In this document: one piece after another, positions 21,228 to 35,321 of the stretch
How positions within the stretch are numbered: position 1 is the stretch's first letter
Layout of the letters: every line of letters begins with the position of its first letter
Origin: Patescibacteria group bacterium
GTDB lineage: Bacteria; Patescibacteriota; Microgenomatia; JAMCZE01
Assembly (NCBI GenBank): GCA_023380635.1
Contig: JAMCRP010000002.1
Location: 42,458-106,457 of the forward strand
Length of the DNA: 64,000 nt
Reading direction: 5' to 3'
The notes under the pieces: model-generated
The model's database searches: none
Seen by the model: only the letters and a program-made list of their open reading frames with translations
Told to the model about the DNA's origin: nothing
Program-made: the position numbers and the translations under genes

Positions 21228-24200
21228 TTGACAAATCTGTTCAAATCTCCGCATACTGATTATGCTGTGAAAAAAAGCACTGACGCCGGACTTTTAAAAA
21301 TTGGTGACGCTGCAAAGTTTCTTAATGTTTCTATCCAGACTCTTCGTCGTTGGGATGAGAGCGGAAAACTGAAACCGGTGGTGACTCCTGGAGGAACAAG
21401 ATTCTACGAAAAACAGGCCTTAAAAAATATCCGGGTCGGAAACGGAGTAAGGGAAACAGATGGTACGGGAGAAATGAAGTCGGAGCAGCAAGTAACAAAA
21501 AAGACGGGGAAATTCAGTAAGCGAGGACTGGTGAAGATTGGGACGGCAGCAAAACTACTGGGGATTTCAATTCCTACCTTGCGACGCTGGGACGAGATGG
21601 GCAAACTCCGGGCTGTGGTCAGCCCTGGCGGGACGCGTCTGTATTCTAAAGATTCCCTGGCGGCAATCAACCCGGCTTTATCCGAATATAAAATTCTCAA
21701 GAGCGAGGAACCCGAGATTAAACCAGCCAAACAATTTATTAAGGAAGTCGTATCTGAGGTTCTCCACCAGCAAAAGGCGGTTTTGCAGCTGCCGCCACCG
21801 GTTAATCCCATTCAAACTATCTCAGAGTGGAGCCAAGAGCCGGTACACTATCGGGCAGAAACGGAAGCAGGGAGAATAGCCGGATACTTCCAAAAACCGC
21901 CCCCGGAAGATACAAGAAACAAGATACAAGAAACAAGAGAAACACCGAATACAAGAAAGAAGCGAAGCTGGAAAAGCTTTGCTTACACTCTTCCGGCAGT
22001 TTTAGCTACTATCCTTCTGCTGTTAACTACCGGCCTGAATATATATATTACTTCCTATCAGAAGAAAGTGGCTTCTGACCGGAATTTGCAGGCGGTCTTG
22101 GCCGAAAGCAGCAGCCAAAACTTTTTAGACATCCGGGCGGATACCGATGTTTCCGGAAGACTGACCGTGTGGGGGAAAGATGTCTTAACAGAAGCGACTT
22201 TAGCTTCTTCTTCCCCCTACCTTAGCAACTTAAACCAAAGCCTCAGCACGACGGCCACTCCTACTTTTGCCAACCTTACCTTAACCGCCGGCAAGATTGT
22301 CCTGGAAGACAAAACGCAAACTTTAAAAAACAAATCGCTTTCGGGATCGGATAACACTTTTTCTAATATTCCCAACTCCGCTTTGGCTAACTCCAAAGTC
22401 ACCGTGACGGCCGGCACCAACCTGACCGGGGGCGGGGATGTCGTCTTAGGTGACAGCACCACGATTGGTTTGAAGGACAACATTAGCGTTACTTCGGTCA
22501 CCAGTTCCGCTCTAACAGTTAATGGAGACGCGGCTATTACCGGAAATTTGAATGTGGGCGGAGGCTTGCAATTTTCTAGCCTGGCGGTGACGGGGACAAG
22601 CGGAACAGCTCCGGTGGCTTCCATTTCCGGTAAAACGTCCTTTGCCGCCGTGGTGGTGGATAATTCCGGCTCAGGTGACTTGTTCACCGCTTCCACTGCC
22701 GGCCAGCCCCGCTTTACGGTTAATTCCAACGGCGACCTTTTACCCGGCATAACCAGTCATCAAAGTATCGGTTCTCCCACTCAGGTCTGGGACACCATCT
22801 ATGCCAATAATCTTTCCGGCACAAACTGGTCAGGAAACATCATCGGTACTCAATATGGCGGCACGGGTCAAGATTGGCACCTGACGGCTCAGGGCAATGT
22901 GCCTTATTTTTCAGCTTCCGGAACCATGAACACCCTGGCGCCCGGCACCAACCATCAGGTTTTTGTGACCCAGGGGGTTGGCGCCAATCCCAAATGGGAA
23001 GACCTGGTCAATTTGTTGACGCCGGGGACGGACATCACTCTGGGGGGAACTAATGTGGTCACTATTAATGACGCTTCCACTTTACAATCGGTTACCGGTC
23101 GGGGGGCGGCAACAACTAATCCCATCACTTTGAATTTAACCGGAGGTAATGCCTATTTTGGTTCCGGTAATGCTTCAGCCCTGGTCGATCTAAGTTCTAC
23201 CTCCAAGGGGTTCTTGACGCCACGCATGACTCAGGCCCAACGGGATGCAATTAGCACTCCGGCACCGGGGTTGCTAATCTATAATACTGATACAAACCAA
23301 TTCAATGTGTATAACAGTTCTACTTGGGGGGCTATTGCTGGAGCGGGGGCGGCGTACTGGGGAGATAATATCGGCGCGTTATATCCGCTATACCTCAACA
23401 GTGATTTATTAATCGGATCTGACGCCACGGCTTCCGCTTTAATCCGGCTTGAGGGCACCACGGGCTATATAACGGCTAACCGGATCAACGGCAACAAAAT
23501 CGCGACCGGATCAGGGAATGTGGCGGTTTCGGCGACTTTGCCTTTGGCCGTCGATACCAACGGCAACATGACTTTGGCCTATACCTCAAACCTGAAAGTG
23601 ACCTCAAGCCAACTGGATACGGCGCAAAACATTGGCCCGAGCGCCTCGCCGCAATTCGTCAGTCTGACGCTCGGGTCAGGAACTACCGGCACTCTCCAAA
23701 CAGCAGCGCTGACTGGCAGTCGCACTTGGACATTGCCAGACAACACCGGAGAAATATGCACGACCTATGGCAATTGTATCGGGGGCGTCGGGGGATCCGT
23801 TGGCGGTTCCGGTACCAATACCAAAATTGCCATGTTCACTCCTGACGGAACCCATATCGGCGATTCCCACATTACCGACACCGGAACTCAGATCCAGTTT
23901 TTTAATACTAGCAATTACATTGATTCCAGCGGCAATTTCTATTTAAACGGTTCATTATTTGCCTCCGGTAACGAGGCGGGTTTTTGGCAGCGGCAGAGTG
24001 GAGTGTTAGCTCCTAAGAATATCACCGATTCTTTGATAATTGGTGGTAACGCGACTGGATCCGGACAGCTACAGGTTTATGGTTTGAACTCGCAAATGCC
24101 GGTGGCGTCAATTTCCGCCCAGACACCCTGGGCAGCCCTGGTCGTGGATAATGCGACCGGTGACCTTTTCACAGCCAGTTCATCAGGAATGACCCGTTTC

Positions 24201-27200
24201 ACGGTTGGTAATACCGGTAATTTGACGGCCGGGACCTATAACACTGCCACTATCACCGGGGGGTCGCTCTCGGCCACGGCCGTAAATGGCGTGGCCACGG
24301 CCAACATTTTAACCACCGGCACCACTTTTGCCGGGGATGTTGGCGGCAGTTACAACAATTTGGCTATCGGGACGGGGAAGGTAACTAACCCCATGCTTTC
24401 CGGGCCGGTGGACACAACCCACGGAGGAACGGGCAATGACTGGCATCTGACGGCTCAGGGCAATGTGCCTTATTTCTCCGCGGCCGGAACGATGGGTCTC
24501 CTGGCGCCCGGGACAGCGTCGCAGGTTTTAACTACCGGTGGGGGCGGCGCGGATCCAGCTTGGACTAACATGGCCAGTTTGGTTACCGGAGCTGGTAACA
24601 TCACTGTCACAGGAACACAAACTCTATCAATTAACACGGTTAACAACCCCACTTTTAGCACTTCGGTCACGACACCGCTTTTGACAAACTCCGGTAATTT
24701 ATTAATTAACCCTACCGGTAATGTTGGGATCGGAACCACCAGCCCGGCGGCTTTGCTTTCGGTGGGGACAAATTCTGATTTACGGGTAAACGGCACCGGG
24801 GACATTGTCGCCCGGACTTACAACGGCAATATTATTGCCACCGGTTCCGGGACTTTAACTTTGGGATCCGCCTCGTTAAACATTGGTACCGGCGGAACAT
24901 TGAATACGGGCGCTTACGCCGATATTTCTTTGTACGCGCCCTTGGCCAGCCCGACTTTTACCGGCACCGTGACGATTCCCACTTCATTTGTTTTGGGCGC
25001 CACGACGGTCACCACGACCGGGACCCAACTGAACTACTTAAACGCTGCCACGGGAACCACGGGAAACACCAACTCCAACCTGGTTTTTTCCAACGGGCCG
25101 ACCTTAACTTCGCCGGCCTTTTCTACCATCGTCAATGTCGGCACTTTAACCCTGCCAACTACTTCTGATACGCTGGTTGGCCGGGCCACGACCGATACTT
25201 TTACCAACAAAACTTTTGACACGGCCGGGACCGGGAATATCCTGAGGATTAACGGCACCCAAGTCTCCGCCGTCACCGGCACGGGTTCCGTGGTTTTAGC
25301 TTCGGCGCCCACCATTAGCAACCCGATTATTACCAATATTAACCCCGGAGCCGATTTCACTTTAACCCAAAACAGCGTGACTCCTTTTATTTCCTATAAT
25401 TCCGGGGCGTTGGCCAACACTTTGGTCTTAAGCGCCGGCAGTGTGGGCATCGGGGTAACGAATCCGGGGGCTAAATTGGATGTGGCCGGCGCCGCTTCGA
25501 TTTCCGGCATTCTTACCTTAAACAACGGAGTGACCACCCAAATTAACGCTACCAATGACCGCAGTCTCGATTTGGGTTTTGCCAACACCGGCCGGGTCAA
25601 CTTTTTAACCACGAGCAGCTATATTGATGCTAACGGCAATTTTTCAACCAACGGCCAAATCCAGGTGGGAAGTTTTGCCAGTGCCCCGACGGCCCTCGGA
25701 GCCGGGAGCATGTATTACAACTCCACCGAAAACCGTCTTTACGCTTATAACGGCACGAACTGGAGCCCGCTGGGGGAGCAAAGCACGGTGGTGGTCACCA
25801 ATAATTCCGGCACCACTTTAAATCCAAAAGACCTGGTCATTTTTGACTCTTCGGCAAACAATGCGGTCACGACAACCACGACTGCCTACAAAAAGGGTGT
25901 GGTTTATGGTGTGGTGGTTGATGCCTCATGCGCCAGCGGGGCGACCAACTGTAAAGTCCAGATTTCCGGCAAGGTAGATGTCTCGGTCACAAATTCTAAC
26001 GCCGCCAAGGGGGATTATGTTTTCACCTCGACAACCGCGGCCAAAGGCGTCACTTCGGCCAAACTTTTTGACGGGTTGATCGGGATTGTGACCGATAACA
26101 CCAATGCCGGATCAGGCTATGTGACGATCATTTTCCAGCCGCAGGCCCAGGTGTTGGCCGGAGTGGTGATGGACAAAATCAGCAGACATAATGACTATAA
26201 AATTTATTCCAATATCTACACTCCCATCAATGAGGGTTCGGTTTTTAGTCCCAATTTAACCGCCCGGGGAATTTCTTTTGACAACTTTTTAGACCAGACC
26301 AAGGTTGATGCTGCTTTAACAACGGTCGGATCAACCATGTCTGCCCAGATCCAGTCACCAACAGCCCAGACCAGTGCGCCGTTTAGAATGGGGCTAACGG
26401 GCGGGCAAACCTACAATACCACTAACACCGATAACGCCGGTAACGCCTATTTAGGCTCCAACACGGTCAACAAAGTCTTTTATTACGACCGGACCCGCGA
26501 TTCCATCCCGCAAGTTCAAGTAGAGTTAGGAATTGACCCGAACTGGTACAACGGTGTCACTTTGTCCGTCGCTTCTACTTCAGCCCAATTCTCGCAAGCG
26601 GATACGATCACTAAACCCAATCCCAATCTTTCCACGGCTTACAACGGAAGTTTGGTCAAGGTTTCCGGAACCTATCCGACCCAGGCGGCGACCAGAACCA
26701 TCTATTTGACGATTACCTCGCCGACGCAATTCACCTGGTCCGACGGCGCCGTCGGCGCTAACAATGTCTCCATTAATCCCGGTGTTTCTCAGGCTTTGGG
26801 CACGACGGGTGTTTCCGTGACTTTCACCAATGTTAAATATAACCCCGGTGATGTCTTCCGGATTGCCTCCTGGGTCGTCGAGCCGGCCTCATCAACCCGC
26901 GGTTCCAAAGCCCAGTTCCCGGAAAGAAGCTATGTGATCGGGACAGCTTCCTCTGTCGATATTATTGACGCGGATACGAATAAACTTTGGATGCGCTTTA
27001 CCATAAATGCGACATCCTGGGCCGTCACTACCATGCTTATTGACGCTTCGTCAAGCGTGACTGCCCTGAATGGAACAATCTATTCTTCCCAAGGAGCCAG
27101 CGGTCTTTTGAAAATAGTTTTTGACCGAGATACCGGTTTTGGTTTTACAACCGACTGGACCAATTACGGCGGAACATTTAGAGGCGGTATCGCCCAGAGA

Positions 27201-30200
27201 AACACCCAGAATGGTTACGCTCAAAATGTCCCTCTAAACATTGTCAATAACACTGTTAACGATATCTCTGCCGCCGTCATTCCCAACCAGCCGACCCAAA
27301 CCGTGACGACAAGCGGGTGGGGATATATGTACCTTAATGCTGCGGGCTCGAATTACGAAGTCGTAAATCTTCCGTATAAATTTAACGATATACCGAAAGT
27401 GGTTATATCCGCATCAGCCGAACGGGCCACAGCACCAACTAATTACGGTGATTGTTCGTGGGGTATATCAACCAACTTTGTTGCCAACACCTATTCGGCT
27501 ACCACCAGTAACTTCGGGGCAACAATAGCTACTCCGGGCAGCGGAACCACCACCGGCTATATTTGTTACACCTGGACCGCCACCGGCGTTGTTTCCCCGA
27601 GACAATATGTGGCGGTGGGAACTAATCAAGGCGTTACCGTGATTAATGAGACGGATCAAAGTGGTGTGAACTATAGTACAGTAAGTTCTGGGGACCATAA
27701 TGTAGGAAGTGTTTTCTTAACCTCTAATGACAACCTTTACTTTAGTTATCCCTGGTCTTACCCAACAGACGTAAAAGTTGCTGTCCAATATGGCGTTGCG
27801 GGGGTTACTTCAAATGTCGCCTGGGACAGTTGGAGCGGAAATTATGCGTCAATTGGAAATAGCTGGAGCAATAAAGGTCCAACGCCATTACAGAGCTCAA
27901 CAAACTATCAGATTTTCGTTACTTCTGGAACTTCAACCATTGATGGAAAGAGCAATACAATTTATGTATCCGGTTCCAATGGTTTGACGGTTATCCAAGA
28001 AAAACAAGCCGGACGTTTTGGTACTGCTGAATCCTATGTTCCGTCAGATGAAAATAATGGCTCTGTTAAATACTACACCAAAGACTACATTTCCGAAGAA
28101 ATGGTCGGGGACATTCGGGGCATGTGGCCGCTTAATGGAACGCTTTCTGATGCTTCAGTTAAAGGCAATACGCTAACAGATGGTGGCATAGCTTTTGGAA
28201 CTGGTGTTCGGGGCCAAGGAGCGGTCATTTCCGGATTGAGCTTTCTTTACTGCACGGATGCCAGTTGCGGCGGGACGAGTAAGTTGGATTCTGGAGGTAC
28301 TGCCTGGAGTTTTGGAGCCTGGTTTAAGACTACTTCGACAGGAGGGACAATTATTTCTAAATATAACGGCGGAGTTAGCGGCGCATATTTTTTAGCAGTT
28401 GACGGTAGCGGAAAACTCTCCGGAGATATCGAACAAAGTCCATATACTTTCACCGGAAACAAAATTGTGAATGACGGTAATTGGCATTTTGGTGTCGTGA
28501 CATACGACGGAGTGTCGGCAAAGATTTACGCTGATGGTCAACTTGACAGTTTGGTCGCCATGACAGGAAACATTCCTGACACTACTGCTAACTTTGCGAT
28601 TGGCGCTCGATATACCGGCGGCAGCGTTTCTAACATTTTACTCGGTTCTATTGATGAACCCTTTGTTTCCGCTACAGCTTTAACGGCCAACCAGATTAAA
28701 CACATGTACGAAGTCGGCGCCCGGGCGCTTCAATCACATAGTGCTTCTTTGGGTGGCGGGGCGGCAGACGCTAATCAAAAGCTAGGGACAAATGTGGCTT
28801 CCGTGTCAGCCGCAGCGGTTGATTACAACAACCAGTTTATGTATGTTGGGGCTAATGACTCGACCAATGGCGGCGTTTCTAAAATTGATTTAAACAGCGA
28901 CACAAATATCCGGACTATCCAAACCGCCAACACTCCGGTCGGCGGCACGGTCTTGCCGGCCAAAACCGTCTCTTCTCTTGCTGCCGGGTACAATTTGGAA
29001 GTTGTGGGCACGGGAACCGGGGCTATCGGCATGGCTCCGGATGACAACGCCAACAACCTGAGTGGGACTCTTTACAGCAAAACTTTAACGACTCCGGAAA
29101 GTTTCTCCCAAGCCTATATCTGGAGCCAACAGGTGACGGACGCGGCCGACGCAGCCAACACGGTCACCGTCTGGGCATCTAATGACGGCGGGTCAAACTA
29201 TTACCAATGCAACCAAACGAATACAGATTCTACCCAGACGCCAACGGAATATGAGTATTTTTGCCAGTTTAATGCCGTTGGAAGTTCTTTAAAGATTAAG
29301 GAGGTTTTTGCCAGGGGTTCGACGAAAACGAACACTTATGTCACCAGGTATGGCGTGGCTTGGATTGATAGTAGTAACGCTATCGGGTCTAATCCTTTGG
29401 GTAACGGAATGTATACCAATAACGCGACCGTGGCGGACAGTTCGTACCTTGAGGTGGCCCACAACCAAAACACCGCCGACGCCGTGGCTAATGCCTGGAT
29501 TTCTTCGGAGTCAAAGTGGAAACAGTTGGATGCCACCTATAAACCGGTCGCCGCTTATGACGGACTTTCCGGCGTCTTAAGTGAGTACCATGATCTAGCC
29601 GCAAACTACAAAACCGGGGATTTAGTTTCCACCCCTTCGGGAATACTTTTTGATACTTTTAAGGACATTACCAAAACCGCTTCGGCCGCCAGCACCTTGT
29701 CTTTGGATTTTGGCAAAAACCGGGTAGGCCTAATGGGCGGACAAACTTTTAACACCACCAATACCGACTCTGACGGCAACGCATTGTTGGGCTCCAACAC
29801 GGTTAACAAGGTTTTCTATTATGACCGGATAAACAAAGATTCCTCGCCCCAAGTGCAGGTGGAACTGGGCGTTGATCCGAACTGGTATAACGGGGTAACC
29901 TTGTCAGTTGCCACCACCTCTGCCCAGATGAGCCAGTCGGAAACAACTGTTCCTGCCGGCAAGAATCCCAACCTTTCAACCACCTATAACGGCTCTCTGG
30001 TTAAAGTCACCGGGACTTACGCTACGACAGCCGCGGCCAGGCCAATTTGGATTACGATTTCTGACAACTCTTCGTTTGTTTGGACAGACTATAACGGCAA
30101 CGGCGGGACAGCCAGCCTTCAGCAGGGTGTCACGCAGGCTTTGGGATCAACCGGCGTTTCCGTGACCTTCACGGGGACAAAATATAACATCGGCGATGTC

Positions 30201-33200
30201 TTTAAGATTGCCTCCTGGTTCGTCGAAAAACCTTCCGCCACCAGAGGCTCAAAACAGCAATTCCCAGAGAGAAGTTATGTCGTTGCTACCGCCGCCTCAG
30301 TAGACATTATTGACGCCGATACCAACAAGTTATGGATGAGATTTACTGGGGCAGACGGCAATATTATCCATTTCCCAACAGGATTTACATATAATGTCCC
30401 ATCTGTCACAGCGCTTAACGGAACTTTGTATGCAGGCATACAACGGACGAATGGAGCTTGGGGTAACTTAACTAGTGTCTACTTCTCACGGGATTCTTCT
30501 TCTGGAATAACTAGCGGCAGTACTTTCCCCTATCCTGGCGTGATTTCTCAGAGAAACAGCGCACTCGGATATCCGCTAGCCTTGAGCACTGTAACCATAG
30601 CCAACAGTTACGTTAACGATGTCTCCGCCGCGGTCATTCCCAACCAGCCGACCCAGACGGTAACTGTGAGCGGGTGGGGGTATATCCAAGGAAACGGGTC
30701 CACGCCTTATGTATCCGAAACAGTCAATTTCCCTTATAAATTCAACAATCTTCCCGTTGTAAATATTAATTTTTCCGGAGGCACCAGCACTACCGCTCCG
30801 ACAAAATTATCGGATTGTGCTGCAAACTGGCGAGTCGAAGCACATGCTGAAAGTATAGGAAATAATAGCTTTACGGCTAAGACAGCACTCACGGAAACCG
30901 GCGACGGCAATACCAGCGCTACCGGTTATTACTGTTACACCTGGACCGCGACAGGGCAAGTTTCGCCGAGACAATATGTAGGGGTAGCAACTAACGGCGG
31001 AGCGACTTTAATTAACGAGACGGACCAAAGTGCGGTTAATTACGGCGACACGGCTCAGTTTAGCCGGATCGCCTTAACCTCCAAGAGCCATATGTATATT
31101 GCCAGAGATAGTAATGTGGGAGAAATAAGAGTCTTTAATAATGCCGCCGGATTGGGGGCTGGTTTTAGCTCAGATATGCTGCTTTTTCCCACAAGTAGTT
31201 GCACAAACCAGCCTTGTTATTTGGCTGAAGCCGCCGGCGGTAATGGTCATGGTCCAACCAGCTTGTTTGTTACTGACGGAACTTCAACGGTAAATGGGAG
31301 TGCCGATACAGTTTATGTCGGTACTGCTGTTGGACTCTCGGTATTTCAATTAAATAATACGAACGCTAATTTAGGTGACGGCCAGGGGGAAATCCAAAGT
31401 TCTTCAGTAAAATATTACACCAAAGACTACATTTCCGAAGAAATGGTCGGGGACATTCGGGGCATGTGGCCGTTTAATGGCAGCGGGGCCATAACTCAAA
31501 ACAGCACAACCTTTACTGATGCCTCAGTAAAGGCCGATCCTTTGGTTTCTAAAGGCACCGGGGCGGCATACGCCAGCGGTGTTCGGGGGACTGGTGTTTC
31601 GCTTAACGGCACTAATGATTATTTCTGCCCGAATGGAGGCAGCGGATCGACCTGTACGGATGTTTCTTCTTTAAAGATTACCGGAAACAGCATATCCGTC
31701 GGAGCCTGGATGAAATCCTCGGCAACTTGCTCTGTCTTTCAGGATGTCATAAGCAAGGAAGATAATACTACTGGAAATTCCTGGCGGATTACAATGGACA
31801 GTGGTAACCACGCAAGATTTGATACTACCTTTGCGCCGGTATATGGTGTGGCCGCAACGGGAACAACAAATATTTGTGACGGCAAGTGGCATTACCTTGT
31901 GGGAGTCTATAACAATGGTGACACACAAAAAATCTATGTTGACGGCAGACTGGAAGGGACCGGGGCCGCACAATCAGCGACAGTCAGAGATGTGACGGCT
32001 CCGGTAGCAGTTGGTGCTGAATTTAATAACGGTACGCCAGGGAATTATTTTAAGGGGACAATCGACGAACCGTTTGTGACAGCCACGACTCTTTCGGCCA
32101 ACCAGATTAAGCATATGTATGAAGTCGGCGCCCGGGCGCTTCAGAGCCATTCCGCCTCTTTAGGCGGCGGGGCGGCGGACAAAAACCAGCAACTGGCCGG
32201 AGCTGCCGGTAACCCCACAAATTTAGTCAAAGCAGTAGGGGTGGATTACAACAACCAATACATGTATGTTTCCAACTCCGAAGCCGGGCTTAACCAAAAC
32301 AACGGCGGAGTTTCCAAGATCGATCTTAATTCTGATACCAATGTTTACACTTATAAAAACGGTTCCACCCCGGCCCAGTTGGATAGTGAGATATCCTCTC
32401 TGGCAGTTGGTTACAACCTTGAAGCCATGTCTTCGACAGCTTCCGGCGTCCTCAACCCCGGTATTGACGCTTTTGCCAGTGCTACTTCCGGTTCCTTCTT
32501 CTCAAATACTTATGTTTTACCAAAGCCCATTGCCTCGGCCGTCATCTGGACCAGCGCTTACAAAGACACTGCCGATTCCGGTTCGACGCAGACGATTAAA
32601 GCCAGTGTTGACGGCGGGAGTACATACGCCACCTGTAATTTGCTTAGTACTGACTACAATCCGGCCACCCCTGAACGGGCCTATGGTTGCGAATTTGCCG
32701 CTTCCGGTCAAAACTTGAAAGTCGAGTTTGATTTAGCCCGAACCAGCGTCAAGTCCAACAATTATGTTTCACAATACGGGATTACCTGGCTGGGACAAAA
32801 CGGGTTCAGAGTGGAACAGACCAATAACAACACAGTCAGACTGTATAACTATTCCGGCGAATCGGCTAATGTCCGGTTGGATGTCATTACCGGCGGCCTG
32901 GGGAGAAATGCCGGGACGATTTCTCTGGCCCCCAGCGCGGCAGATGTTGATGCCCAGAATAATTCCAATTCCCTGTGGATAAACAAAACGGGGGCGGGAG
33001 GGAATTTATTAAAACTTCAGGTCAGCGGGGCTGACAAACTCACCTTGGATGCTAACGGCCTGATGACCTTGACTGGGAACTTTGTTCCGGGAGCGGACAA
33101 CACCTATGATTTGGGCGCCTCGTCATCAGCCAGGTTTAGAAACTTGTATCTTGGACCCGGCTCGCTTCATATTCAGTCAAAATCCACAGACACGGGTTAC

Positions 33201-35321
33201 CCGGCGCTGGGGCTGGATTATGCCCTAGGCATTAACCCTGCCGGGAGCTTGGTGACCAGTCTGAACGGGACCTCGAACGCCTTGATGGCTATTACCCAGG
33301 ATGGTAAAGTCGGCATCGGGACAACTGCGCCCACGGCTCTTCTTCAGGTTTTTGGTAACGGCACCACTCAGGTGGCCAGTGTCTCGGCTTCTACCGGGAA
33401 AGCGGCTCTTTTGGTTGACAACACCGTTGGCGACCTCTTTACCGCGTCTTCTTCCGGAATGTCCCGGTTTGTGATTACGCAAAGCGGCAACGTCGGCATC
33501 GGGACAACGGGGCCAGGAGATAAACTCCATGTCGCAGGGGGCAATATTATAATTGAAGGATCTGGAGCTGGTGCAAGTCCTCGTGGTATTAAAACCCGTT
33601 ACACATCAAGTGACTCTTATTCTGGTAGTTTAGGTTGGAATGGTCTACAGCTTGGCAATAATGGACCAAATTATATTGTCGCTGGTAATTCAGCAACAGG
33701 TGGAAGTCTGAATTTCATTGTAAATAATTCTAATAGCTTGGGGACTGGAACAGATTATGGGACTGCTAATGGAACAAATGCAATGACAATATTAAGCAGT
33801 GGTAATGTCGGCATCGGGACAACGGGGCCAAATAAATTACTTGATGTATATAAATCTCAAAGCAGTGTCACCGACGAGTCGCAAGCGGCAGCGGCTTTCG
33901 GTGTCACTACGACGGGAGGTATCTATGGATATATCACTCCTAATCAGACTGGAAAAACAGTCACATTCGCTGGAGTTCGAGGCGGTCAGGCTAACGACGT
34001 ATCGCTGCTCTTTAACCCAGCTGGCGGCAACGTCGGCATCGGGACGACGGGACCTTTGGGCAAGTTAGATGTCGGCAACCAAATGTATGTTCAGTCAAAC
34101 GGAACCATCGAGAGTCCAGGCAGCAAGAACACGACTAACGGAATGATTGAAACATACTATAATGCTGGTGACAGATATGGTTTAGGTCAACTTTCCAATG
34201 GAGTAACAGCTTTGTACACATCCGATGCTTACAGCCCCAGCTCAATACAGTTTGGAAGAATAGACAGCAGCAACAATTTCATCTCTCTGATGGATATTAC
34301 CCATGGTGGCAATGTCGGCATCGGGACGACGAGTCCGGGCTATCTTTTAACCGTTAACTCCAGCACCCCAGGCTGCAACGGGTGTACCGCCTGGACAAAC
34401 TACTCTGATATCCGCCTAAAGGAAAACATTGCTTCCGTCTCCGGGGGAATTTTAGACAAAATTTTGCAACTAAACCCGGTGACTTTTAACTACAACGACA
34501 CCTACTATACCCAAACGGGTTATTCCCGCCCTGATGGCCAAACACCAACTTACACTGGCTTTATTGCCCAGCAGTTGCAAACGATTTTTCCGGAAATGGT
34601 TTCCACCTCCAGTAATGGTTATCTTGACACCAACCTTTCCAACTTGCAGATCTATCTGGTTAAAGGTATGCAGGAACAACAGGGAGAAATTGCTTCCCAG
34701 TCAGCCCAAATTGCCACCATGTCGGCCACACTTTCGGCCTGGAACGACCTTCTGGGGACCCCCTCAGCCTCTTTAGCCGAGTCTGTCGCCCGCCTAGACG
34801 GGTTATCAGCCGATATTTCCTCTTTAATGGCCGATAACCTCCAGATTAAATCCGATATCCAGCTTCTTAAAGAGCAAATGGCCACAGTTTCGGCTAACTT
34901 GGCTCAGGTTTCTTCCCAAACCGCTTCCAATTCCGCTTCTCTGGCTTCCTTAAGTCCCTTAAGTAACTTAAGCATCTTAAGTGATCTGGAAGTCTCGACG
35001 GTTTCGGCTTCCTTTGCCAACTTTTCTGACACTCTCAAGGTCGTGGGCAAGACCCAGCTGGCTGATACTAACATCGGGGGCAGCTTGACCGTGGGGTTGC
35101 TGCACTTTGACGATTTGAAAGCGGAGATATCCAGCTTAACCGGCACGGTTACCATTAACAGCAATTTGCAGGTGGCCGGAGACGCCACGGTGTCGGGAAC
35201 GCTCAAAACCGCCACGGCAGAAACTGACGGAATCAGTCTTAAAGATGAGGTGACGGGGGATTACTATTGTATTCGGATGCACAGTGGCGAGATTGCCAAA
35301 ACCCCCGGGAAATGCCAGTAG
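21228..35321 (+). CDS. giant membrane-anchored fibre-like protein (4697 aa): 2x MerR-type HTH, single TM, tail-fibre-like repeats, 2x ConA/LamG-like lectin domains, C-terminal peptidase-S74 intramolecular-chaperone domain
   Basis: Two N-terminal copies of LLKIGDAAKFLNVSIQTLRRWDESGKLKPVVTPGGTRFYEKQAL (MerR/HTH_17 pattern IGExAKxxGVSxxTLRxYExxGLLxPxRxxxGYRxY). TM helix identical to giant gene 1. Seven GNVGIGTT(S/G)P-type motifs. LamG/ConA-like jelly-roll domains at ~28.12-28.73 kb and ~31.46-32.15 kb (AWSFGAWFKTT...NWHFGVVTYDG...KIYADGQL). S74 domain at ~34.40-34.69 kb (SDIRLKENI...LNPVTFNYN...TGFIAQQLQTIFPEMV...YLDTNLSNLQIYLVKGMQEQQ). The start is ambiguous: TTG at 21228 or GTG at 21267. Confidence 0.85.
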   Translation: MTNLFKSPHTDYAVKKSTDAGLLKIGDAAKFLNVSIQTLRRWDESGKLKPVVTPGGTRFYEKQALKNIRVGNGVRETDGTGEMKSEQQVTKKTGKFSKRGLVKIGTAAKLLGISIPTLRRWDEMGKLRAVVSPGGTRLYSKDSLAAINPALSEYKILKSEEPEIKPAKQFIKEVVSEVLHQQKAVLQLPPPVNPIQTISEWSQEPVHYRAETEAGRIAGYFQKPPPEDTRNKIQETRETPNTRKKRSWKSFAYTLPAVLATILLLLTTGLNIYITSYQKKVASDRNLQAVLAESSSQNFLDIRADTDVSGRLTVWGKDVLTEATLASSSPYLSNLNQSLSTTATPTFANLTLTAGKIVLEDKTQTLKNKSLSGSDNTFSNIPNSALANSKVTVTAGTNLTGGGDVVLGDSTTIGLKDNISVTSVTSSALTVNGDAAITGNLNVGGGLQFSSLAVTGTSGTAPVASISGKTSFAAVVVDNSGSGDLFTASTAGQPRFTVNSNGDLLPGITSHQSIGSPTQVWDTIYANNLSGTNWSGNIIGTQYGGTGQDWHLTAQGNVPYFSASGTMNTLAPGTNHQVFVTQGVGANPKWEDLVNLLTPGTDITLGGTNVVTINDASTLQSVTGRGAATTNPITLNLTGGNAYFGSGNASALVDLSSTSKGFLTPRMTQAQRDAISTPAPGLLIYNTDTNQFNVYNSSTWGAIAGAGAAYWGDNIGALYPLYLNSDLLIGSDATASALIRLEGTTGYITANRINGNKIATGSGNVAVSATLPLAVDTNGNMTLAYTSNLKVTSSQLDTAQNIGPSASPQFVSLTLGSGTTGTLQTAALTGSRTWTLPDNTGEICTTYGNCIGGVGGSVGGSGTNTKIAMFTPDGTHIGDSHITDTGTQIQFFNTSNYIDSSGNFYLNGSLFASGNEAGFWQRQSGVLAPKNITDSLIIGGNATGSGQLQVYGLNSQMPVASISAQTPWAALVVDNATGDLFTASSSGMTRFTVGNTGNLTAGTYNTATITGGSLSATAVNGVATANILTTGTTFAGDVGGSYNNLAIGTGKVTNPMLSGPVDTTHGGTGNDWHLTAQGNVPYFSAAGTMGLLAPGTASQVLTTGGGGADPAWTNMASLVTGAGNITVTGTQTLSINTVNNPTFSTSVTTPLLTNSGNLLINPTGNVGIGTTSPAALLSVGTNSDLRVNGTGDIVARTYNGNIIATGSGTLTLGSASLNIGTGGTLNTGAYADISLYAPLASPTFTGTVTIPTSFVLGATTVTTTGTQLNYLNAATGTTGNTNSNLVFSNGPTLTSPAFSTIVNVGTLTLPTTSDTLVGRATTDTFTNKTFDTAGTGNILRINGTQVSAVTGTGSVVLASAPTISNPIITNINPGADFTLTQNSVTPFISYNSGALANTLVLSAGSVGIGVTNPGAKLDVAGAASISGILTLNNGVTTQINATNDRSLDLGFANTGRVNFLTTSSYIDANGNFSTNGQIQVGSFASAPTALGAGSMYYNSTENRLYAYNGTNWSPLGEQSTVVVTNNSGTTLNPKDLVIFDSSANNAVTTTTTAYKKGVVYGVVVDASCASGATNCKVQISGKVDVSVTNSNAAKGDYVFTSTTAAKGVTSAKLFDGLIGIVTDNTNAGSGYVTIIFQPQAQVLAGVVMDKISRHNDYKIYSNIYTPINEGSVFSPNLTARGISFDNFLDQTKVDAALTTVGSTMSAQIQSPTAQTSAPFRMGLTGGQTYNTTNTDNAGNAYLGSNTVNKVFYYDRTRDSIPQVQVELGIDPNWYNGVTLSVASTSAQFSQADTITKPNPNLSTAYNGSLVKVSGTYPTQAATRTIYLTITSPTQFTWSDGAVGANNVSINPGVSQALGTTGVSVTFTNVKYNPGDVFRIASWVVEPASSTRGSKAQFPERSYVIGTASSVDIIDADTNKLWMRFTINATSWAVTTMLIDASSSVTALNGTIYSSQGASGLLKIVFDRDTGFGFTTDWTNYGGTFRGGIAQRNTQNGYAQNVPLNIVNNTVNDISAAVIPNQPTQTVTTSGWGYMYLNAAGSNYEVVNLPYKFNDIPKVVISASAERATAPTNYGDCSWGISTNFVANTYSATTSNFGATIATPGSGTTTGYICYTWTATGVVSPRQYVAVGTNQGVTVINETDQSGVNYSTVSSGDHNVGSVFLTSNDNLYFSYPWSYPTDVKVAVQYGVAGVTSNVAWDSWSGNYASIGNSWSNKGPTPLQSSTNYQIFVTSGTSTIDGKSNTIYVSGSNGLTVIQEKQAGRFGTAESYVPSDENNGSVKYYTKDYISEEMVGDIRGMWPLNGTLSDASVKGNTLTDGGIAFGTGVRGQGAVISGLSFLYCTDASCGGTSKLDSGGTAWSFGAWFKTTSTGGTIISKYNGGVSGAYFLAVDGSGKLSGDIEQSPYTFTGNKIVNDGNWHFGVVTYDGVSAKIYADGQLDSLVAMTGNIPDTTANFAIGARYTGGSVSNILLGSIDEPFVSATALTANQIKHMYEVGARALQSHSASLGGGAADANQKLGTNVASVSAAAVDYNNQFMYVGANDSTNGGVSKIDLNSDTNIRTIQTANTPVGGTVLPAKTVSSLAAGYNLEVVGTGTGAIGMAPDDNANNLSGTLYSKTLTTPESFSQAYIWSQQVTDAADAANTVTVWASNDGGSNYYQCNQTNTDSTQTPTEYEYFCQFNAVGSSLKIKEVFARGSTKTNTYVTRYGVAWIDSSNAIGSNPLGNGMYTNNATVADSSYLEVAHNQNTADAVANAWISSESKWKQLDATYKPVAAYDGLSGVLSEYHDLAANYKTGDLVSTPSGILFDTFKDITKTASAASTLSLDFGKNRVGLMGGQTFNTTNTDSDGNALLGSNTVNKVFYYDRINKDSSPQVQVELGVDPNWYNGVTLSVATTSAQMSQSETTVPAGKNPNLSTTYNGSLVKVTGTYATTAAARPIWITISDNSSFVWTDYNGNGGTASLQQGVTQALGSTGVSVTFTGTKYNIGDVFKIASWFVEKPSATRGSKQQFPERSYVVATAASVDIIDADTNKLWMRFTGADGNIIHFPTGFTYNVPSVTALNGTLYAGIQRTNGAWGNLTSVYFSRDSSSGITSGSTFPYPGVISQRNSALGYPLALSTVTIANSYVNDVSAAVIPNQPTQTVTVSGWGYIQGNGSTPYVSETVNFPYKFNNLPVVNINFSGGTSTTAPTKLSDCAANWRVEAHAESIGNNSFTAKTALTETGDGNTSATGYYCYTWTATGQVSPRQYVGVATNGGATLINETDQSAVNYGDTAQFSRIALTSKSHMYIARDSNVGEIRVFNNAAGLGAGFSSDMLLFPTSSCTNQPCYLAEAAGGNGHGPTSLFVTDGTSTVNGSADTVYVGTAVGLSVFQLNNTNANLGDGQGEIQSSSVKYYTKDYISEEMVGDIRGMWPFNGSGAITQNSTTFTDASVKADPLVSKGTGAAYASGVRGTGVSLNGTNDYFCPNGGSGSTCTDVSSLKITGNSISVGAWMKSSATCSVFQDVISKEDNTTGNSWRITMDSGNHARFDTTFAPVYGVAATGTTNICDGKWHYLVGVYNNGDTQKIYVDGRLEGTGAAQSATVRDVTAPVAVGAEFNNGTPGNYFKGTIDEPFVTATTLSANQIKHMYEVGARALQSHSASLGGGAADKNQQLAGAAGNPTNLVKAVGVDYNNQYMYVSNSEAGLNQNNGGVSKIDLNSDTNVYTYKNGSTPAQLDSEISSLAVGYNLEAMSSTASGVLNPGIDAFASATSGSFFSNTYVLPKPIASAVIWTSAYKDTADSGSTQTIKASVDGGSTYATCNLLSTDYNPATPERAYGCEFAASGQNLKVEFDLARTSVKSNNYVSQYGITWLGQNGFRVEQTNNNTVRLYNYSGESANVRLDVITGGLGRNAGTISLAPSAADVDAQNNSNSLWINKTGAGGNLLKLQVSGADKLTLDANGLMTLTGNFVPGADNTYDLGASSSARFRNLYLGPGSLHIQSKSTDTGYPALGLDYALGINPAGSLVTSLNGTSNALMAITQDGKVGIGTTAPTALLQVFGNGTTQVASVSASTGKAALLVDNTVGDLFTASSSGMSRFVITQSGNVGIGTTGPGDKLHVAGGNIIIEGSGAGASPRGIKTRYTSSDSYSGSLGWNGLQLGNNGPNYIVAGNSATGGSLNFIVNNSNSLGTGTDYGTANGTNAMTILSSGNVGIGTTGPNKLLDVYKSQSSVTDESQAAAAFGVTTTGGIYGYITPNQTGKTVTFAGVRGGQANDVSLLFNPAGGNVGIGTTGPLGKLDVGNQMYVQSNGTIESPGSKNTTNGMIETYYNAGDRYGLGQLSNGVTALYTSDAYSPSSIQFGRIDSSNNFISLMDITHGGNVGIGTTSPGYLLTVNSSTPGCNGCTAWTNYSDIRLKENIASVSGGILDKILQLNPVTFNYNDTYYTQTGYSRPDGQTPTYTGFIAQQLQTIFPEMVSTSSNGYLDTNLSNLQIYLVKGMQEQQGEIASQSAQIATMSATLSAWNDLLGTPSASLAESVARLDGLSADISSLMADNLQIKSDIQLLKEQMATVSANLAQVSSQTASNSASLASLSPLSNLSILSDLEVSTVSASFANFSDTLKVVGKTQLADTNIGGSLTVGLLHFDDLKAEISSLTGTVTINSNLQVAGDATVSGTLKTATAETDGISLKDEVTGDYYCIRMHSGEIAKTPGKCQ
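26270..32790. repeat. diverged internal tandem duplication (~3.1-3.4 kb unit x2) within giant gene 2
   Basis: Copy A ~26270-29390 and copy B ~29640-32790 are collinear at protein level (G(I/L)(S/L)FD-x-F-x-D-x-TK ... NTVNKVFYYDR ... QVQVELG(I/V)DPNWYNGVTLSVA ... SSVKYYTKDYISEEMVGDIRGMWP ... HMYEVGARALQSHSASLGGGAAD ... VDYNNQ-x-MYV ... GGVSKIDLNSDTN). There is a 56-nt exact DNA match at 28075-28130 versus 31417-31472. Confidence 0.85.
34938..34985. repeat. in-frame tandem 9-bp 'nnnCTTAAG' array inside giant gene 2
   Basis: tcccttaag taacttaag catcttaag tgatctgga encoding SLSPLSNLSILSDLE; the same unit family as the intergenic arrays at 9.7, 10.4, 11.1 and 38.8 kb. Confidence 0.7.

What the first reader, a model, noticed from the sequence alone, without database searches (positions are those of the whole stretch)
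34400..34690. C-terminal peptidase-S74 intramolecular-chaperone (auto-cleaving) domain in giant gene 2 indicates a phage tail-spike/fibre-like trimeric beta-helical ectodomain
The segment YSDIRLKENIASVSGGILDKILQLNPVTFNYNDTYY...TGFIAQQLQTIFPEMV...NGYLDTNLSNLQIYLVKGMQEQQ matches the S74 CIMCD consensus (SDxRLKxNI ... L-x-PVxYxY ... GFIAQEvqevxPExV ... YxxLxxLL-x-AIQEL). In phage endosialidases and tail fibres this domain chaperones trimer folding and then auto-cleaves at the Ser of SD(I/R)RLK. Here it sits ~215 aa before the C-terminus, so a released ~24-kDa coiled-coil fragment (conserved in giant gene 1) is predicted. Together with the repeated GNVGIGTT(S/G)P-x-x-L-x-V motifs (11 copies across the two genes), the ectodomains look like domesticated phage tail-fibre/tailspike modules used as cellular surface fibres.
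Basis: partly seen in the sequence, partly recalled or inferred. Interest (0 to 1): 0.75.

Follow-up and report, generated by a model that had tools for sequence, protein, structure and literature searches.

The report
Phage-type self-cleaving domain in giant fibre
A 4,697-residue membrane-anchored surface protein of an uncultured Patescibacteria bacterium does contain the self-cleaving folding domain of phage tail fibres; cell-owned fibres of this kind are already known from Bdellovibrio, so this is an unusual variant (the domain is not at the end and is followed by a conserved tail), not a new kind of system.

Summary
Gene 2 (21228-35321, 4,697 aa) has a Peptidase_S74 intramolecular-chaperone domain at aa 4393-4458 (Pfam E 1.7e-14, 54 bits against a cutoff of 22). 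The Ser4393/Lys4398 dyad is intact. The predicted fold matches MyRF ICA, GA-1 gp12 and endoNF chaperones. All 11 GNVGIGTT motifs are present, and their regions hit phage tail-fibre families even without S74.

Corrections:
- The cut would release 305 aa (32 kDa), not 24 kDa. Only the last 212 aa are shared with gene 1.
- The host is a Patescibacteria MAG and the neighbourhood is housekeeping genes.
- Phage S74 domains are about 30% identical, against 50-80% for cellular ones.
- Only the distal ~400 aa look tail-fibre-like. The middle is a duplicated ~1,100-aa unit with LamG lectin domains.

Cellular S74 fibres are already proven in Bdellovibrio (MAT family).

What differs here:
- A cytoplasmic tandem MerR/BldC-type HTH plus one transmembrane anchor.
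- Giant size.
- An internal S74 followed by a coiled coil and a conserved 118-aa Cys-clamped module that is absent from viral contigs.
- Gene 1 has a weak phi29-gp12-type (G2-like) chaperone signal in the equivalent position.

Verdict: a new variant of a known kind, of moderate interest.

The parts
21228..35321 (+). Giant gene 2: 4,697-aa ORF with a TTG start. Predicted N-in single-pass membrane protein with a ~4,400-aa ectodomain.
   Evidence: ORF list and translation. There is one hydrophobic segment only. All 24 Cys lie in the ectodomain, in 12 close pairs.
21297..21668 (+). Two tandem MerR/BldC/excisionase-type helix-turn-helix domains (aa 24-70 and 104-147), predicted cytoplasmic.
   Evidence: Pfam MerR E 1.6e-22, MerR_1 and HTH_17, two stretches each. 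NCBIfam BldC-type 1.5e-12 and excisionase domain 4.5e-9.
21978..22049 (+). Single transmembrane helix FAYTLPAVLATILLLLTTGLNIYI, identical in gene 1.
   Evidence: It is the only Kyte-Doolittle window above 1.8 in either protein. Coordinates.
21678..22550 (+). Conserved 'stem' (aa 151-441) shared with gene 1: 74% amino-acid identity, with a 300-nt block 96% identical at the DNA level.
   Evidence: blastp. Direct repeat D1, 16237-16536 vs 21931-22230. 226 relatives in the exhaustive HMMER search.
26259..32792 (+). Tandem internal duplication (aa 1678-2713 and 2802-3855, 43-57% identity). Each copy contains a Laminin_G_3 / ConA-like lectin domain.
   Evidence: Self-blast, DNA repeats D8-D13, Pfam Laminin_G_3 E 1.2e-31 with 2 stretches.
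33159..34403 (+). Distal tail-fibre-like region (aa 3978-4392) with five G(N/K)VGIGTT.P...L.V 'capping-loop'-type motifs. The last is at aa 4361-4378, followed by a CxxC (C4383/C4386).
   Evidence: PHROG tail-fibre families phrog_9942 (E 4.6e-21) and phrog_18345 (E 3.6e-18) with S74 excluded. The motif aligns with the MyRF beta-helical stalk. Motif list.
34401..34406 (+). Predicted autocleavage site between Tyr4392 and Ser4393. The catalytic partner Lys4398 is at nt 34419-34421.
   Evidence: S, D and K are nearly invariant in 94 homologs. They are equivalent to endoNF S911/K916 and MyRF S587/K592 (PMC8326128). The dyad is kept in 25/25 internal and 109/109 terminal S74 domains.
34404..34712 (+). 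Peptidase_S74 C-terminal intramolecular chaperone domain. The Pfam core is aa 4393-4458; the full domain, including its helix, runs to about aa 4495.
   Evidence: Pfam 54.3 bits. 8jov aligns to within two residues of that chain's end (residue 437 of 439) at query aa ~4495. The model and Foldseek hits are 7dc3, 3gud and 3gw6.
34635..34949 (+). Long helical segment (aa 4470-4574) that continues the S74 C-terminal helix; a putative trimeric coiled-coil stalk of ~100 residues.
   Evidence: AlphaFold helices 131-171 and 175-235 of the slice, pLDDT mostly >90. The same helices appear in the gene 1 model. Only coiled-coil-type weak Pfam hits were found.
34965..35318 (+). Conserved 118-aa C-terminal module (…LKVVGKTQLA.T.IGG.LTVGLLHFDDLKAEISSLTG… C-x14-C-Q). 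No known family.
   Evidence: 22 invariant columns in 18 sequences, including both Cys. No Pfam, PHROG or NCBIfam family. Only 11 database homologs. Absent from IMG/VR.
15552..20261 (+). Giant gene 1 (1,569 aa; MCL4398055.1), a paralog with the same TM, stem and C-terminal tail but no S74.
19074..19619 (+). Gene 1 aa 1175-1356: candidate phi29-gp12/Peptidase_G2-type autochaperone domain, starting 'GS|DLAEG'. It occupies the position that S74 has in gene 2.
   Evidence: A profile of 5 copies hits the Dpo31 tailspike chaperone domain 28nb (E 2e-4) and the phi29 pre-neck appendage 3gqh (E 0.019), starting at chain residues 1-6. Homolog P0067 hits PF11962 at 22 bits, below the cutoff of 25. The fold test failed.
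19620..20258 (+). Gene 1 tail (aa 1357-1569): coiled coil plus conserved C-terminal module, 77% identical to gene 2 aa 4484-4697.
   Evidence: blastp, alignment A2.
20303..21097 (+). WecG/TagA-family glycosyltransferase gene between the two giant genes. Possibly functionally linked (cell-surface glycopolymer); membership in the system is uncertain.
   Evidence: Pfam Glyco_tran_WecG E 2.5e-31.

Best explanation
Gene 2 encodes a giant cell-surface fibre of a Patescibacteria (CPR) cell, not a phage part.

Topology (inferred from the sequence): two cytoplasmic MerR/BldC-type HTH domains, one transmembrane helix, then about 4,400 extracellular residues.

Architecture (shown by homology): the ectodomain is mosaic. 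It has a conserved membrane-proximal stem, then a duplicated lectin-bearing body, then a distal ~400-aa tail-fibre-like segment with capping-loop motifs that runs directly into a genuine S74 intramolecular-chaperone domain.

Mechanism (inferred by analogy with endoNF, T5 pb1, MyRF and Bdellovibrio Bd3182): after export, three chains are brought into register from their C-terminal ends by the S74 domain and the ~100-residue coiled coil that extends its last helix. This templates the intertwined beta-helix upstream. Once the trimer is formed, the Ser4393-Lys4398 dyad cuts the chain before Ser4393.

Consequence (inferred): the mature fibre (aa 1-4392) stays anchored in the membrane. A trimeric 305-aa (32 kDa per chain) fragment is detached, made of chaperone, coiled coil and the conserved 118-aa Cys-clamped module.

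Role of the tail (the weakest step): I read the post-S74 tail as an extension of the disposable assembly/registration device rather than as the adhesive tip. It is the most conserved part of the protein. It is shared with gene 1, where it follows a different (G2-like) chaperone-type domain. The variable lectin-bearing body is the more plausible binding part.
For: Domain identity:
- Pfam S74, 54 bits against a cutoff of 22.
- PHROG tail-fibre C-termini.
- PDB sequence hits 8jov and 7dc3.
- Model with pLDDT >90, and Foldseek hits 7dc3 (E 7e-6, TM 0.60), 3gud and 3gw6.

Catalytic competence:
- S4393, D4394 and K4398 fall in nearly invariant columns.
- The Ser/Lys dyad is kept in 25/25 internal S74 domains as well as in 109/109 terminal ones.
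- The literature shows the dyad is indispensable, acts only in the trimer, and that the C-terminal coiled coil drives trimerisation (PMC8326128).

Cellular fibre:
- Housekeeping neighbours and a Patescibacteria MAG.
- N-terminal HTH plus a single TM.
- 12 Cys pairs, confined to the ectodomain.

Tail-fibre-like distal part: PHROG hits without S74 and the MyRF stalk alignment of the motif.

The architecture recurs:
- P0135, P0156, P0170 and P0177 have HTH plus S74 placed 301-431 aa from the end.
- L002, L003 and L005 also have an internal S74.

Tail as a conserved, portable module:
- 77% identity between the paralogs, against 31-41% for the fibre body.
- 22 invariant columns.
- It follows S74, or the G2-like domain, or both in tandem in L003.

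Precedent: Bdellovibrio MAT fibres on a predator's surface, with proven S74 cleavage (PMC10769870).
Against: - Trimerisation, cleavage and release are all inferred.
- In phages, and in most homologs, S74 is terminal (median 120 aa from Ser to the end). The behaviour of an internal S74 with 200 extra residues is therefore untested.
- The tail also occurs in short signal-peptide proteins with no chaperone domain (P0003, P0063). That fits a general anchoring or trimerising module at least as well as an extension of the chaperone.
- The tail's beta-rich part was not modelled confidently in either run, so its fold is unknown.
- In endoNF, cleavage depends on an upstream Arg in the beta-helix. No equivalent residue was identified here.
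Confidence: 0.55

Rival explanations
1. The S74 domain works mainly as a permanent trimerisation joint. Either it does not cut, or the cut fragment stays bound. On this reading the coiled coil plus the Cys-clamped module is the functional distal tip (adhesin or cap) of the fibre.
For: The tail has a fibre-like layout: coiled coil, then a beta-rich segment, then a small disulfide-closed knob. It lies at the end furthest from the membrane anchor. There is a weak PHROG tail-needle hit (E 0.0076). Several relatives carry other, different domains after S74 (P0002, P0013, P0024 and L005 end in '...NWWIV'), as exchangeable tips would.
Against: The catalytic Ser/Lys pair is conserved in every internal S74 examined, which would not be needed for a non-cleaving joint. 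The tail is the most conserved part, whereas receptor-binding tips are normally the most variable. In endoNF, T5 and Bd3182 the chaperone leaves after cleavage.
Confidence: 0.2
2. The conserved C-terminal module is a sorting or cell-envelope-anchoring signal, and S74 cleavage removes it. The fibre's far end would be held at the cell surface until it matures. This would parallel Bacteroidota proteins in which S74 is followed by a T9SS C-terminal sorting domain.
For: Among homologs with more than 200 aa after the Ser, P0049, P0058 and P0062 carry PF18962 (the T9SS sorting domain) together with S74. The tail module also ends small secreted proteins with unrelated N-terminal parts (P0003, P0063), as sorting signals do. 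It sits strictly at the C-terminus and has invariant Cys residues. It is absent from viral contigs.
Against: Genes 1 and 2 already have an N-terminal membrane anchor and presumably use Sec. No dedicated secretion or sortase-like partner was found in the window. Patescibacteria lack an outer membrane, so a T9SS-type logic does not transfer directly (general knowledge).
Confidence: 0.13
3. MyRF-like membrane-tethered transcription factor: S74 self-cleavage frees the N-terminal HTH domains so that they can act on DNA.
For: The same three ingredients as in MyRF are present: a DNA-binding domain, a transmembrane helix and an S74 domain.
Against: The order is wrong for this mechanism. [quoted passage not shown] Here the TM helix and about 4,100 extracellular residues separate the HTH domains from S74. 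A cut at Ser4393 therefore leaves the HTH domains membrane-bound.
Confidence: 0.03
4. It is a genuine phage or prophage tail-fibre gene, or an assembly chimera between phage and host DNA.
For: S74 and the capping-loop region match phage tail-fibre families. One viral contig has a 55%-identical junction.
Against: No phage genes flank it; the neighbours are LeuRS, ArgRS, MreB, NDK and ribosomal protein L1. GC content is uniform. A 14-kb uninterrupted ORF with an HTH-plus-TM N-terminus is not a virion-protein design. The same HTH-to-S74 architecture recurs on other cellular contigs. In the nearest viral relative S74 is terminal.
Confidence: 0.02

Closest known systems
Bdellovibrio bacteriovorus MAT (mosaic adhesive trimer) fibres, S74 subgroup, e.g. 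Bd3182 (Caulton et al. 2024, PMC10769870)
   Same: Both are chromosomally encoded, cell-surface, tail-fibre-like proteins of a bacterium that lives on other bacteria. Both have multiple paralogs with mosaic bodies. Both have an S74 domain with the SDxxxK motif after a beta-helix carrying V-G-…-P-x-x-x-L capping loops, which are also seen in MyRF. Some paralogs lack S74, as gene 1 does.
   Different: MAT proteins have a signal peptide and a conserved ~130-aa N-terminal beta-rich domain, are roughly 1,000 aa long where lengths are given (Bd2133 1,031, Bd3182 at least 922), and terminate in S74. Gene 2 has cytoplasmic HTH domains and a TM anchor, is 4,697 aa long, and has 212 further residues (coiled coil plus conserved module) after S74.
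Phage C-terminal intramolecular chaperone domains: K1F endosialidase endoNF (3gw6), T5 L-shaped tail fibre pb1, GA-1 gp12 (3gud)
   Same: Same Pfam family, same Ser-Lys dyad, same fold by Foldseek, and the same position directly after a beta-helical segment.
   Different: In phages the domain forms the last ~100-150 residues (133 in T5 pb1; ~115 in viral contig L006). Deposited phage records are 28-31% identical in the listed rows (all 68 below 60%). The carrier here is a membrane protein of a cell.
MyRF / MrfA ICA domain (7dc3)
   Same: It is the best structural match (E 7e-6). The alignment extends into the upstream G.VGI.T..P…L.V stalk motif. S74 is also non-terminal, and the protein also has a DNA-binding domain and a TM helix.
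   Different: In MyRF the order is DNA-binding domain, then ICA, then TM, and cleavage frees the transcription factor. Here the order is HTH, then TM, then ectodomain, then S74, so cleavage cannot free the HTH domains.
Uncharacterised bacterial 'tail fiber domain-containing proteins' (the NCBI name for PF13884-bearing proteins), including Bacteroidota forms with a T9SS sorting domain
   Same: These are the closest sequence relatives of the S74 region (50-80% identity). They occur in Omnitrophota, Moraniibacteriota, Bacteroidia, Thermodesulfobacteriota and others. Some have extra C-terminal domains after S74.
   Different: Most are 200-630 aa long with S74 at the end. None of those listed combines HTH, TM, a giant body and this tail module. 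No function is known for any of them.
phi29 gp12 pre-neck appendage / Peptidase_G2 autochaperone, and the Dpo31 tailspike chaperone domain (relevant to gene 1)
   Same: Gene 1's domain aligns from the first residues of the released chaperone chains (D-F/Y-A-E-Y against S|DLAEG) and shares the hVGLhGQhPVKV block.
   Different: The support is sub-threshold only: PF11962 at 22 bits against a cutoff of 25 in a homolog, and no direct Pfam hit for gene 1. The fold test failed. A shared tail follows the domain.

Membership tests
Peptidase S74 / C-terminal intramolecular chaperone domain (PF13884) | Sequence match to the family model above the curated threshold | tested here: met
   54.3 bits against a gathering cutoff of 22, E 1.7e-14, model positions 1-57 of 58.
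Peptidase S74 / C-terminal intramolecular chaperone domain (PF13884) | Catalytic Ser-Lys dyad with S-x4-K spacing (endoNF S911/K916, MyRF S587/K592) | tested here: met
   S4393-D-I-R-L-K4398. S, D and K fall in columns conserved in at least 90% of 94 homologs. The dyad is intact in 134/134 aligned domains. The defining residues are taken from PMC8326128.
Peptidase S74 / C-terminal intramolecular chaperone domain (PF13884) | Characteristic fold: a beta-rich cleavage module followed by a long trimerising helix | tested here: met
   The monomer model has pLDDT >90 over the domain. The top Foldseek hits are 7dc3 (E 7e-6, TM 0.60), 3gud and 3gw6.
Peptidase S74 / C-terminal intramolecular chaperone domain (PF13884) | Lies directly downstream of a triple-beta-helix or fibre segment | tested here: inconclusive
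   The upstream capping-loop motif aligns with the MyRF stalk, and the upstream 440 aa hit tail-fibre PHROGs. A trimeric beta-helix could not be modelled (monomer prediction only; pLDDT 44-79 upstream).
Peptidase S74 / C-terminal intramolecular chaperone domain (PF13884) | Homotrimerisation and autoproteolysis at the Ser | not testable with these tools
   This needs expression of the C-terminal fragment with and without S4393A, or proteomics.
Phage-type CIMCD arrangement | The domain forms the extreme C-terminus (~100-150 aa from the Ser to the stop) | tested here: not met
   305 aa from Ser4393 to the end, against a median of 120 in 103 homologs. The figure is 133 in T5 pb1 and ~115 in viral contig L006.
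Bdellovibrio MAT superfamily | Signal peptide followed by the conserved ~130-aa N-terminal beta-rich domain | not tested
   Gene 2 instead starts with HTH domains and a TM helix.
Bdellovibrio MAT superfamily | Beta-helical fibre with capping loops, ending in S74 or an alternative tip | tested here: inconclusive
   A motif of the same type occurs 11 times and S74 is present, but S74 is not terminal. The structural equivalence of the loops was not tested.
MyRF-type membrane-bound transcription factors | [quoted passage not shown] | tested here: not met
   HTH at aa 24-147, TM at aa 251-274, S74 at aa 4393.
Peptidase_G2 IMC domain (PF11962), for gene 1 | Match to the family model above threshold | tested here: not met
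   Gene 1 gave no hit even at E<=10. Its homolog P0067 scored 22 bits against a cutoff of 25. The profile hits to 28nb (E 2e-4) and 3gqh (E 0.019) are suggestive only.

The most novel reading that the evidence does not exclude
The HTH / TM / giant fibre / internal S74 / conserved tail proteins could form a Patescibacteria-specific contact apparatus. In that reading, an extracellular tail-fibre-like filament is physically coupled through the membrane to DNA-binding domains. S74-driven shedding of a trimeric 32-kDa cap (chaperone + coiled coil + Cys-clamped module) would be a regulated maturation or deployment step, not just folding quality control. Examples would be unmasking the fibre end on host contact, or releasing a diffusible trimer. 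Interchangeable S74-type and G2-type chaperones would serve the same shed module.
Probability: 0.1. Interest if true: 0.8.

Novelty: new variant of a known kind. Interest (0 to 1): 0.45.

Why it matters
Patescibacteria are ultrasmall bacteria, and all cultivated members live attached to other microbes. How they recognise and hold on to hosts is largely unknown beyond type IV pili (abstract of PMC11623550).

A family of giant, membrane-anchored, tail-fibre-like proteins with lectin domains is a concrete candidate for that role. It parallels the Bdellovibrio MAT fibres, which would suggest that phage-style fibre assembly has been adopted by cells in at least two unrelated bacterium-dependent lifestyles.

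The internal S74 gives a sharply testable prediction: a cut before Ser4393 that yields a 32-kDa fragment. The tail module and the cytoplasmic HTH domains have no described counterpart in the S74 systems compared here, and could reveal how a 4,700-residue chain is trimerised outside the cell.

The core claim, S74 in a cellular fibre, is not new. S74-bearing bacterial proteins are routinely named 'tail fiber domain-containing protein' in public annotation.

Tried and rejected
1. Word-indexed homolog search with the TM + stem segment found nothing, although relatives exist (L004; 226 hits by exhaustive HMMER). I treat this as a tool limitation, not as absence.
2. Exact look-up of gene 2 with an M start found no record, so its public name is unknown. 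Gene 1 is MCL4398055.1, 'helix-turn-helix domain-containing protein'.
3. The AlphaFold model of gene 1's G2-like domain + coiled coil + tail was too poor to use: mean pLDDT 51.8, and below 50 over the G2-like part. I ran no fold search on it.
4. Direct Pfam, PDB and PHROG searches of gene 1's pre-tail region gave nothing significant. Only a 5-sequence profile gave hits to chaperone domains.
5. Pfam, PHROG and NCBIfam scans of the tail gave only coiled-coil noise.
6. Two literature searches found no report of S74 in Patescibacteria or CPR. A third surfaced the giant-gene preprint 10.1101/2023.11.21.568195, which does not mention S74 or tail fibres.
7. The prophage explanation was rejected on gene context and uniform composition.
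8. MyRF-like release of the HTH domains was rejected on domain order.
9. The first attempt at dyad counting used the wrong alignment columns. It was corrected.

Full report

- Pfam places Peptidase_S74 (PF13884, 'chaperone of endosialidase') at aa 4393-4458, covering model positions 1-57 of 58, with E 1.7e-14 and 54.3 bits against a gathering score of 22.
- Thirteen PHROG families match the same stretch at their own C-terminal ends; 10 of them are tail or tail-fibre families (best E 6e-17).
- PDB sequence search finds a phage tail fibre (8jov) and the MyRF ICA domain (7dc3).
- An AlphaFold model of aa 4340-4697, built on a 94-sequence alignment, has pLDDT >90 over the domain. Its best Foldseek hits in the PDB are 7dc3 (E 7e-6, TM 0.60), 3gud (GA-1 gp12 chaperone) and 3gw6 (endoNF chaperone).

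The motif count is also right: 11 G(N/S/K)VG(I/V)G…P…L.V motifs, four in gene 1 and seven in gene 2.

**2. Corrections to the geometry**

The predicted scissile bond is Tyr4392|Ser4393 (nt 34401-34406). From Ser4393 to the stop is 305 aa, or 32.2 kDa, not about 24 kDa. By the 8jov alignment, which runs to within two residues of that chain's end, the chaperone domain ends near aa 4495. What gene 1 shares is only the last 212-214 aa (21.8 kDa, 77% identity). Gene 1 has no S74.

**3. Who carries it, and in what context?**

Exact-sequence look-up identifies the contig as a 174.7-kb Patescibacteria MAG. Its LeuRS is MCL4398044.1. Gene 1 is MCL4398055.1, named 'helix-turn-helix domain-containing protein'. 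The neighbours are LeuRS, ComEC, ArgRS, an M16 peptidase, NDK, two tRNAs, a PEGA protein, MreB, a WecG/TagA glycosyltransferase (between the two giant genes), ribosomal protein L1 and a P-type ATPase. GC content is even across the window. This is not a prophage.

**4. Anatomy of the two proteins**

Both proteins begin with two tandem MerR/BldC/excisionase-type HTH domains. These are followed by a single, identical hydrophobic helix and a conserved 'stem'. The stem is 74% identical at the amino-acid level, and a 300-nt block is 96% identical in DNA. With no signal peptide and a folded N-terminal domain, an N-in, C-out topology is the natural reading. Consistent with that, all 24 Cys of gene 2 lie beyond aa 844 and fall into 12 close pairs.

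The body of gene 2 is not uniformly tail-fibre-like.
- The first ~1,100 ectodomain residues hit no phage family.
- aa 1678-2713 and 2802-3855 are a diverged tandem duplication (43-57% identity). Each copy carries a Laminin_G_3 lectin-type domain.
- Only aa ~3950-4390, and aa 681-1000 of gene 1, match tail-fibre PHROGs without help from S74 (E 5e-21 and 2e-17).

[quoted passage not shown] It is the same kind of element that Caulton et al. describe as capping loops shared between Bdellovibrio fibres and MyRF (PMC10769870).

**5. What follows S74?**

The model continues the last S74 helix into about 100 helical residues, with high confidence. Next comes a beta-rich stretch that a monomer prediction cannot resolve, then a confident small hairpin knob closed by Cys4681/Cys4696.

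The last 118 aa form a sharply conserved module, with 22 invariant columns in 18 sequences.
- It matches no Pfam, PHROG or NCBIfam family.
- It has only 11 database homologs and five loci among 185,579 species genomes.
- It has no representative in 2.9 million viral contigs.

The module is portable and occurs in several contexts:
- after S74 plus coiled coil (gene 2, P0006, P0014, P0025, P0056, L002);
- after the gene 1-type domain (gene 1, P0015, P0067/L004);
- after both in tandem (L003);
- at the end of small signal-peptide proteins (P0003, P0063).

Close S74 relatives carry other domains after S74 instead: P0001, P0002, P0013, P0024 and L005, the last four ending in '…NWWIV'.

**6. Is an internal S74 unusual, and is it still catalytic?**

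In 103 homologs with a recognisable motif, the median distance from the Ser to the C-terminus is 120 aa. Nine exceed 200 aa. Three of those nine are Bacteroidota-type proteins with a T9SS sorting domain.

An exhaustive HMMER search with the stem returned 226 relatives, and 15 of the top 150 are longer than 2,000 aa. Among those 150:
- 32 have the N-terminal HTH and 15 have S74;
- the four with both (1,585-4,057 aa) all place S74 301-431 aa from the end, as gene 2 does;
- the relatives without the HTH have a terminal S74 (93-139 aa from the end).

The Ser and Lys are retained in 25/25 internal and 109/109 terminal domains. Published work shows this dyad is indispensable, acts only in the trimer, and that the C-terminal coiled coil drives trimerisation (PMC8326128). 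I conclude that cleavage competence is maintained by selection in the internal class. That is an inference, not a demonstration.

**7. Is it phage-derived?**

The nearest deposited phage S74 domains are 28-31% identical in the listed rows (68 records, all below 60%). IMG/VR contigs are mostly 27-41% identical, with one at 55% (L006). In L006 the protein stops ~115 aa after the Ser and is followed by small phage-like ORFs. Uncultured cellular bacteria reach 50-80%. The homology with phage fibres is real, but this copy belongs to a resident cellular lineage. Neither the direction nor the age of any transfer can be read from these data.

P0135 combines a gene 1-type N-terminus (82% identity) with a gene 2-type C-terminal 590 aa (82%). 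This shows ongoing module exchange between these fibre genes.

**8. Gene 1**

At the position where gene 2 has S74, gene 1 has a ~180-aa domain beginning 'GS|DLAEG'. A 5-sequence profile of this domain hits the chaperone domain of tailspike Dpo31 (28nb, E 2e-4) and the phi29 pre-neck appendage autochaperone (3gqh, E 0.019). Both alignments start at the first residues of those released chains. A homolog scores 22 bits on Peptidase_G2, below the cutoff of 25. Gene 1 itself gives no direct hit, and the structure model failed. This remains a lead. If it is true, both paralogs would use a phage-type self-cleaving chaperone ahead of the same tail.

**9. Most likely mechanism**

Shown: domain identity, dyad, fold, architecture and its recurrence.

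Inferred:
- The protein is an N-in membrane-anchored surface fibre.
- After export, three chains are registered from the C-terminal end by S74 plus the extended coiled coil.
- The distal beta-helix zips up.
- The dyad cuts before Ser4393, and a trimeric 305-aa fragment leaves.

I favour reading the tail as part of the disposable assembly or registration device. It is the most conserved part and it accompanies chaperone-type domains, while the variable lectin-bearing body is the likelier binding surface. This is the weakest link, because the module also ends small proteins that have no chaperone domain. The rivals, a retained tip or a sorting/anchoring signal analogous to S74 + T9SS-CTD proteins, are not excluded. 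A MyRF-like release of the HTH domains is excluded by domain order. A prophage origin is excluded by context.

**10. Comparison with what is known, and verdict**

Cellular, surface-displayed, tail-fibre-like proteins with S74 are established in Bdellovibrio. The MAT family has 21 members, 13 of which end in S74, and Bd3182 cleavage is abolished by S782A. NCBI already names many such bacterial proteins 'tail fiber domain-containing protein'. I found no report of S74 in Patescibacteria or CPR.

The finding is therefore a correct domain call in a new variant of a known kind. Its distinguishing features are the cytoplasmic HTH + TM anchor, the giant size, the internal S74 followed by a lineage-specific conserved tail, and a paralog with a possible G2-type chaperone.

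Interest is moderate at 0.45. The locus is useful for CPR host-attachment biology and gives a sharp biochemical prediction, but it is neither a surprise in principle nor a new mechanism on present evidence.

Noticed in passing
window 21297-21668 (gene 2) and 15552-16100 (gene 1): Both giant surface proteins start with two tandem MerR/BldC/excisionase-type HTH domains on the cytoplasmic side of a single TM helix. The HTH subtype differs between the two genes, while the TM and stem are identical. 32 of the top 150 stem relatives have such an N-terminal HTH. Why a surface fibre should carry DNA-binding-type domains is unexplained.
   Followed up: partly
window 19074-19619 (gene 1 aa 1175-1356): Candidate phi29-gp12/Peptidase_G2-type autochaperone domain at the position that S74 occupies in gene 2. 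Profile hits are to 28nb (E 2e-4) and 3gqh (E 0.019), and the hit in a homolog is below the Pfam threshold. Locus L003 carries S74 and this domain in tandem before the tail.
   Followed up: partly
window 26259-29366 and 29631-32792: A ~3.35-kb tandem duplication inside gene 2 (43-57% amino-acid identity). Each copy carries a Laminin_G_3 lectin-type domain. One 77-nt block is still 95% identical (28062-28138 vs 31404-31480).
   Followed up: partly
window 16237-16536 vs 21931-22230: A 300-nt stretch covering the TM helix and the start of the stem is 96% identical between genes 1 and 2, far above the rest of the genes. This suggests recent gene conversion. Such repeats are also a risk for assembly errors.
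   Followed up: no
protein P0135 (1,612 aa): A relative from another sample combines a gene 1-type N-terminus (82%) with a gene 2-type C-terminal 590 aa including S74 (82%). The family is mosaic, with very variable body length (1,612 vs 4,697 aa) between conserved ends.
   Followed up: partly
window 34374-34385 (gene 2 Cys4383/Cys4386): A CxxC pair (PGCNGCTAW) sits 7-10 residues before the cleavage Ser. It is shared by the closest relatives (P0001, P0002, P0135, L003), while other homologs have GQPGANGYTAF at this position. A possible disulfide next to the scissile bond.
   Followed up: no
window 20303-21097: A WecG/TagA/CpsF-family glycosyltransferase gene sits between the two giant genes on the same strand. 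MreB and a PEGA-domain protein lie just upstream of gene 1. This may be a cell-envelope gene cluster.
   Followed up: no
L004 6840-9395 and 9398-10297: In another Patescibacteria MAG, the HTH-TM-stem part (851 aa) and the G2-like + tail part (299 aa, P0067) are adjacent ORFs in different frames with a 2-nt gap. This could be a frameshift, a sequencing error, or a genuinely split gene.
   Followed up: no
protein P0056 (399 aa): A homolog with S74 and the tail has an intein-type sequence (…VWDIEVEGSRNFVGNGILAHNT, PF14890 precomputed) at its N-terminal end. This suggests an intein inside a fibre gene of this family.
   Followed up: no
window 10455-11027 and 37211-37813: Two ORFs give sub-threshold hits to the 23S rRNA intervening-sequence protein family (PF05635; 28.5 and 25.8 bits against a cutoff of 33.8). 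One of them lies between two tRNA genes.
   Followed up: no
window 54952-55836 (- strand): A 293-aa protein has a matrixin-type metalloprotease hit (Peptidase_M10, 31 bits) and a sub-threshold FlgK helical-domain hit. This is an odd combination for an organism of this group.
   Followed up: no
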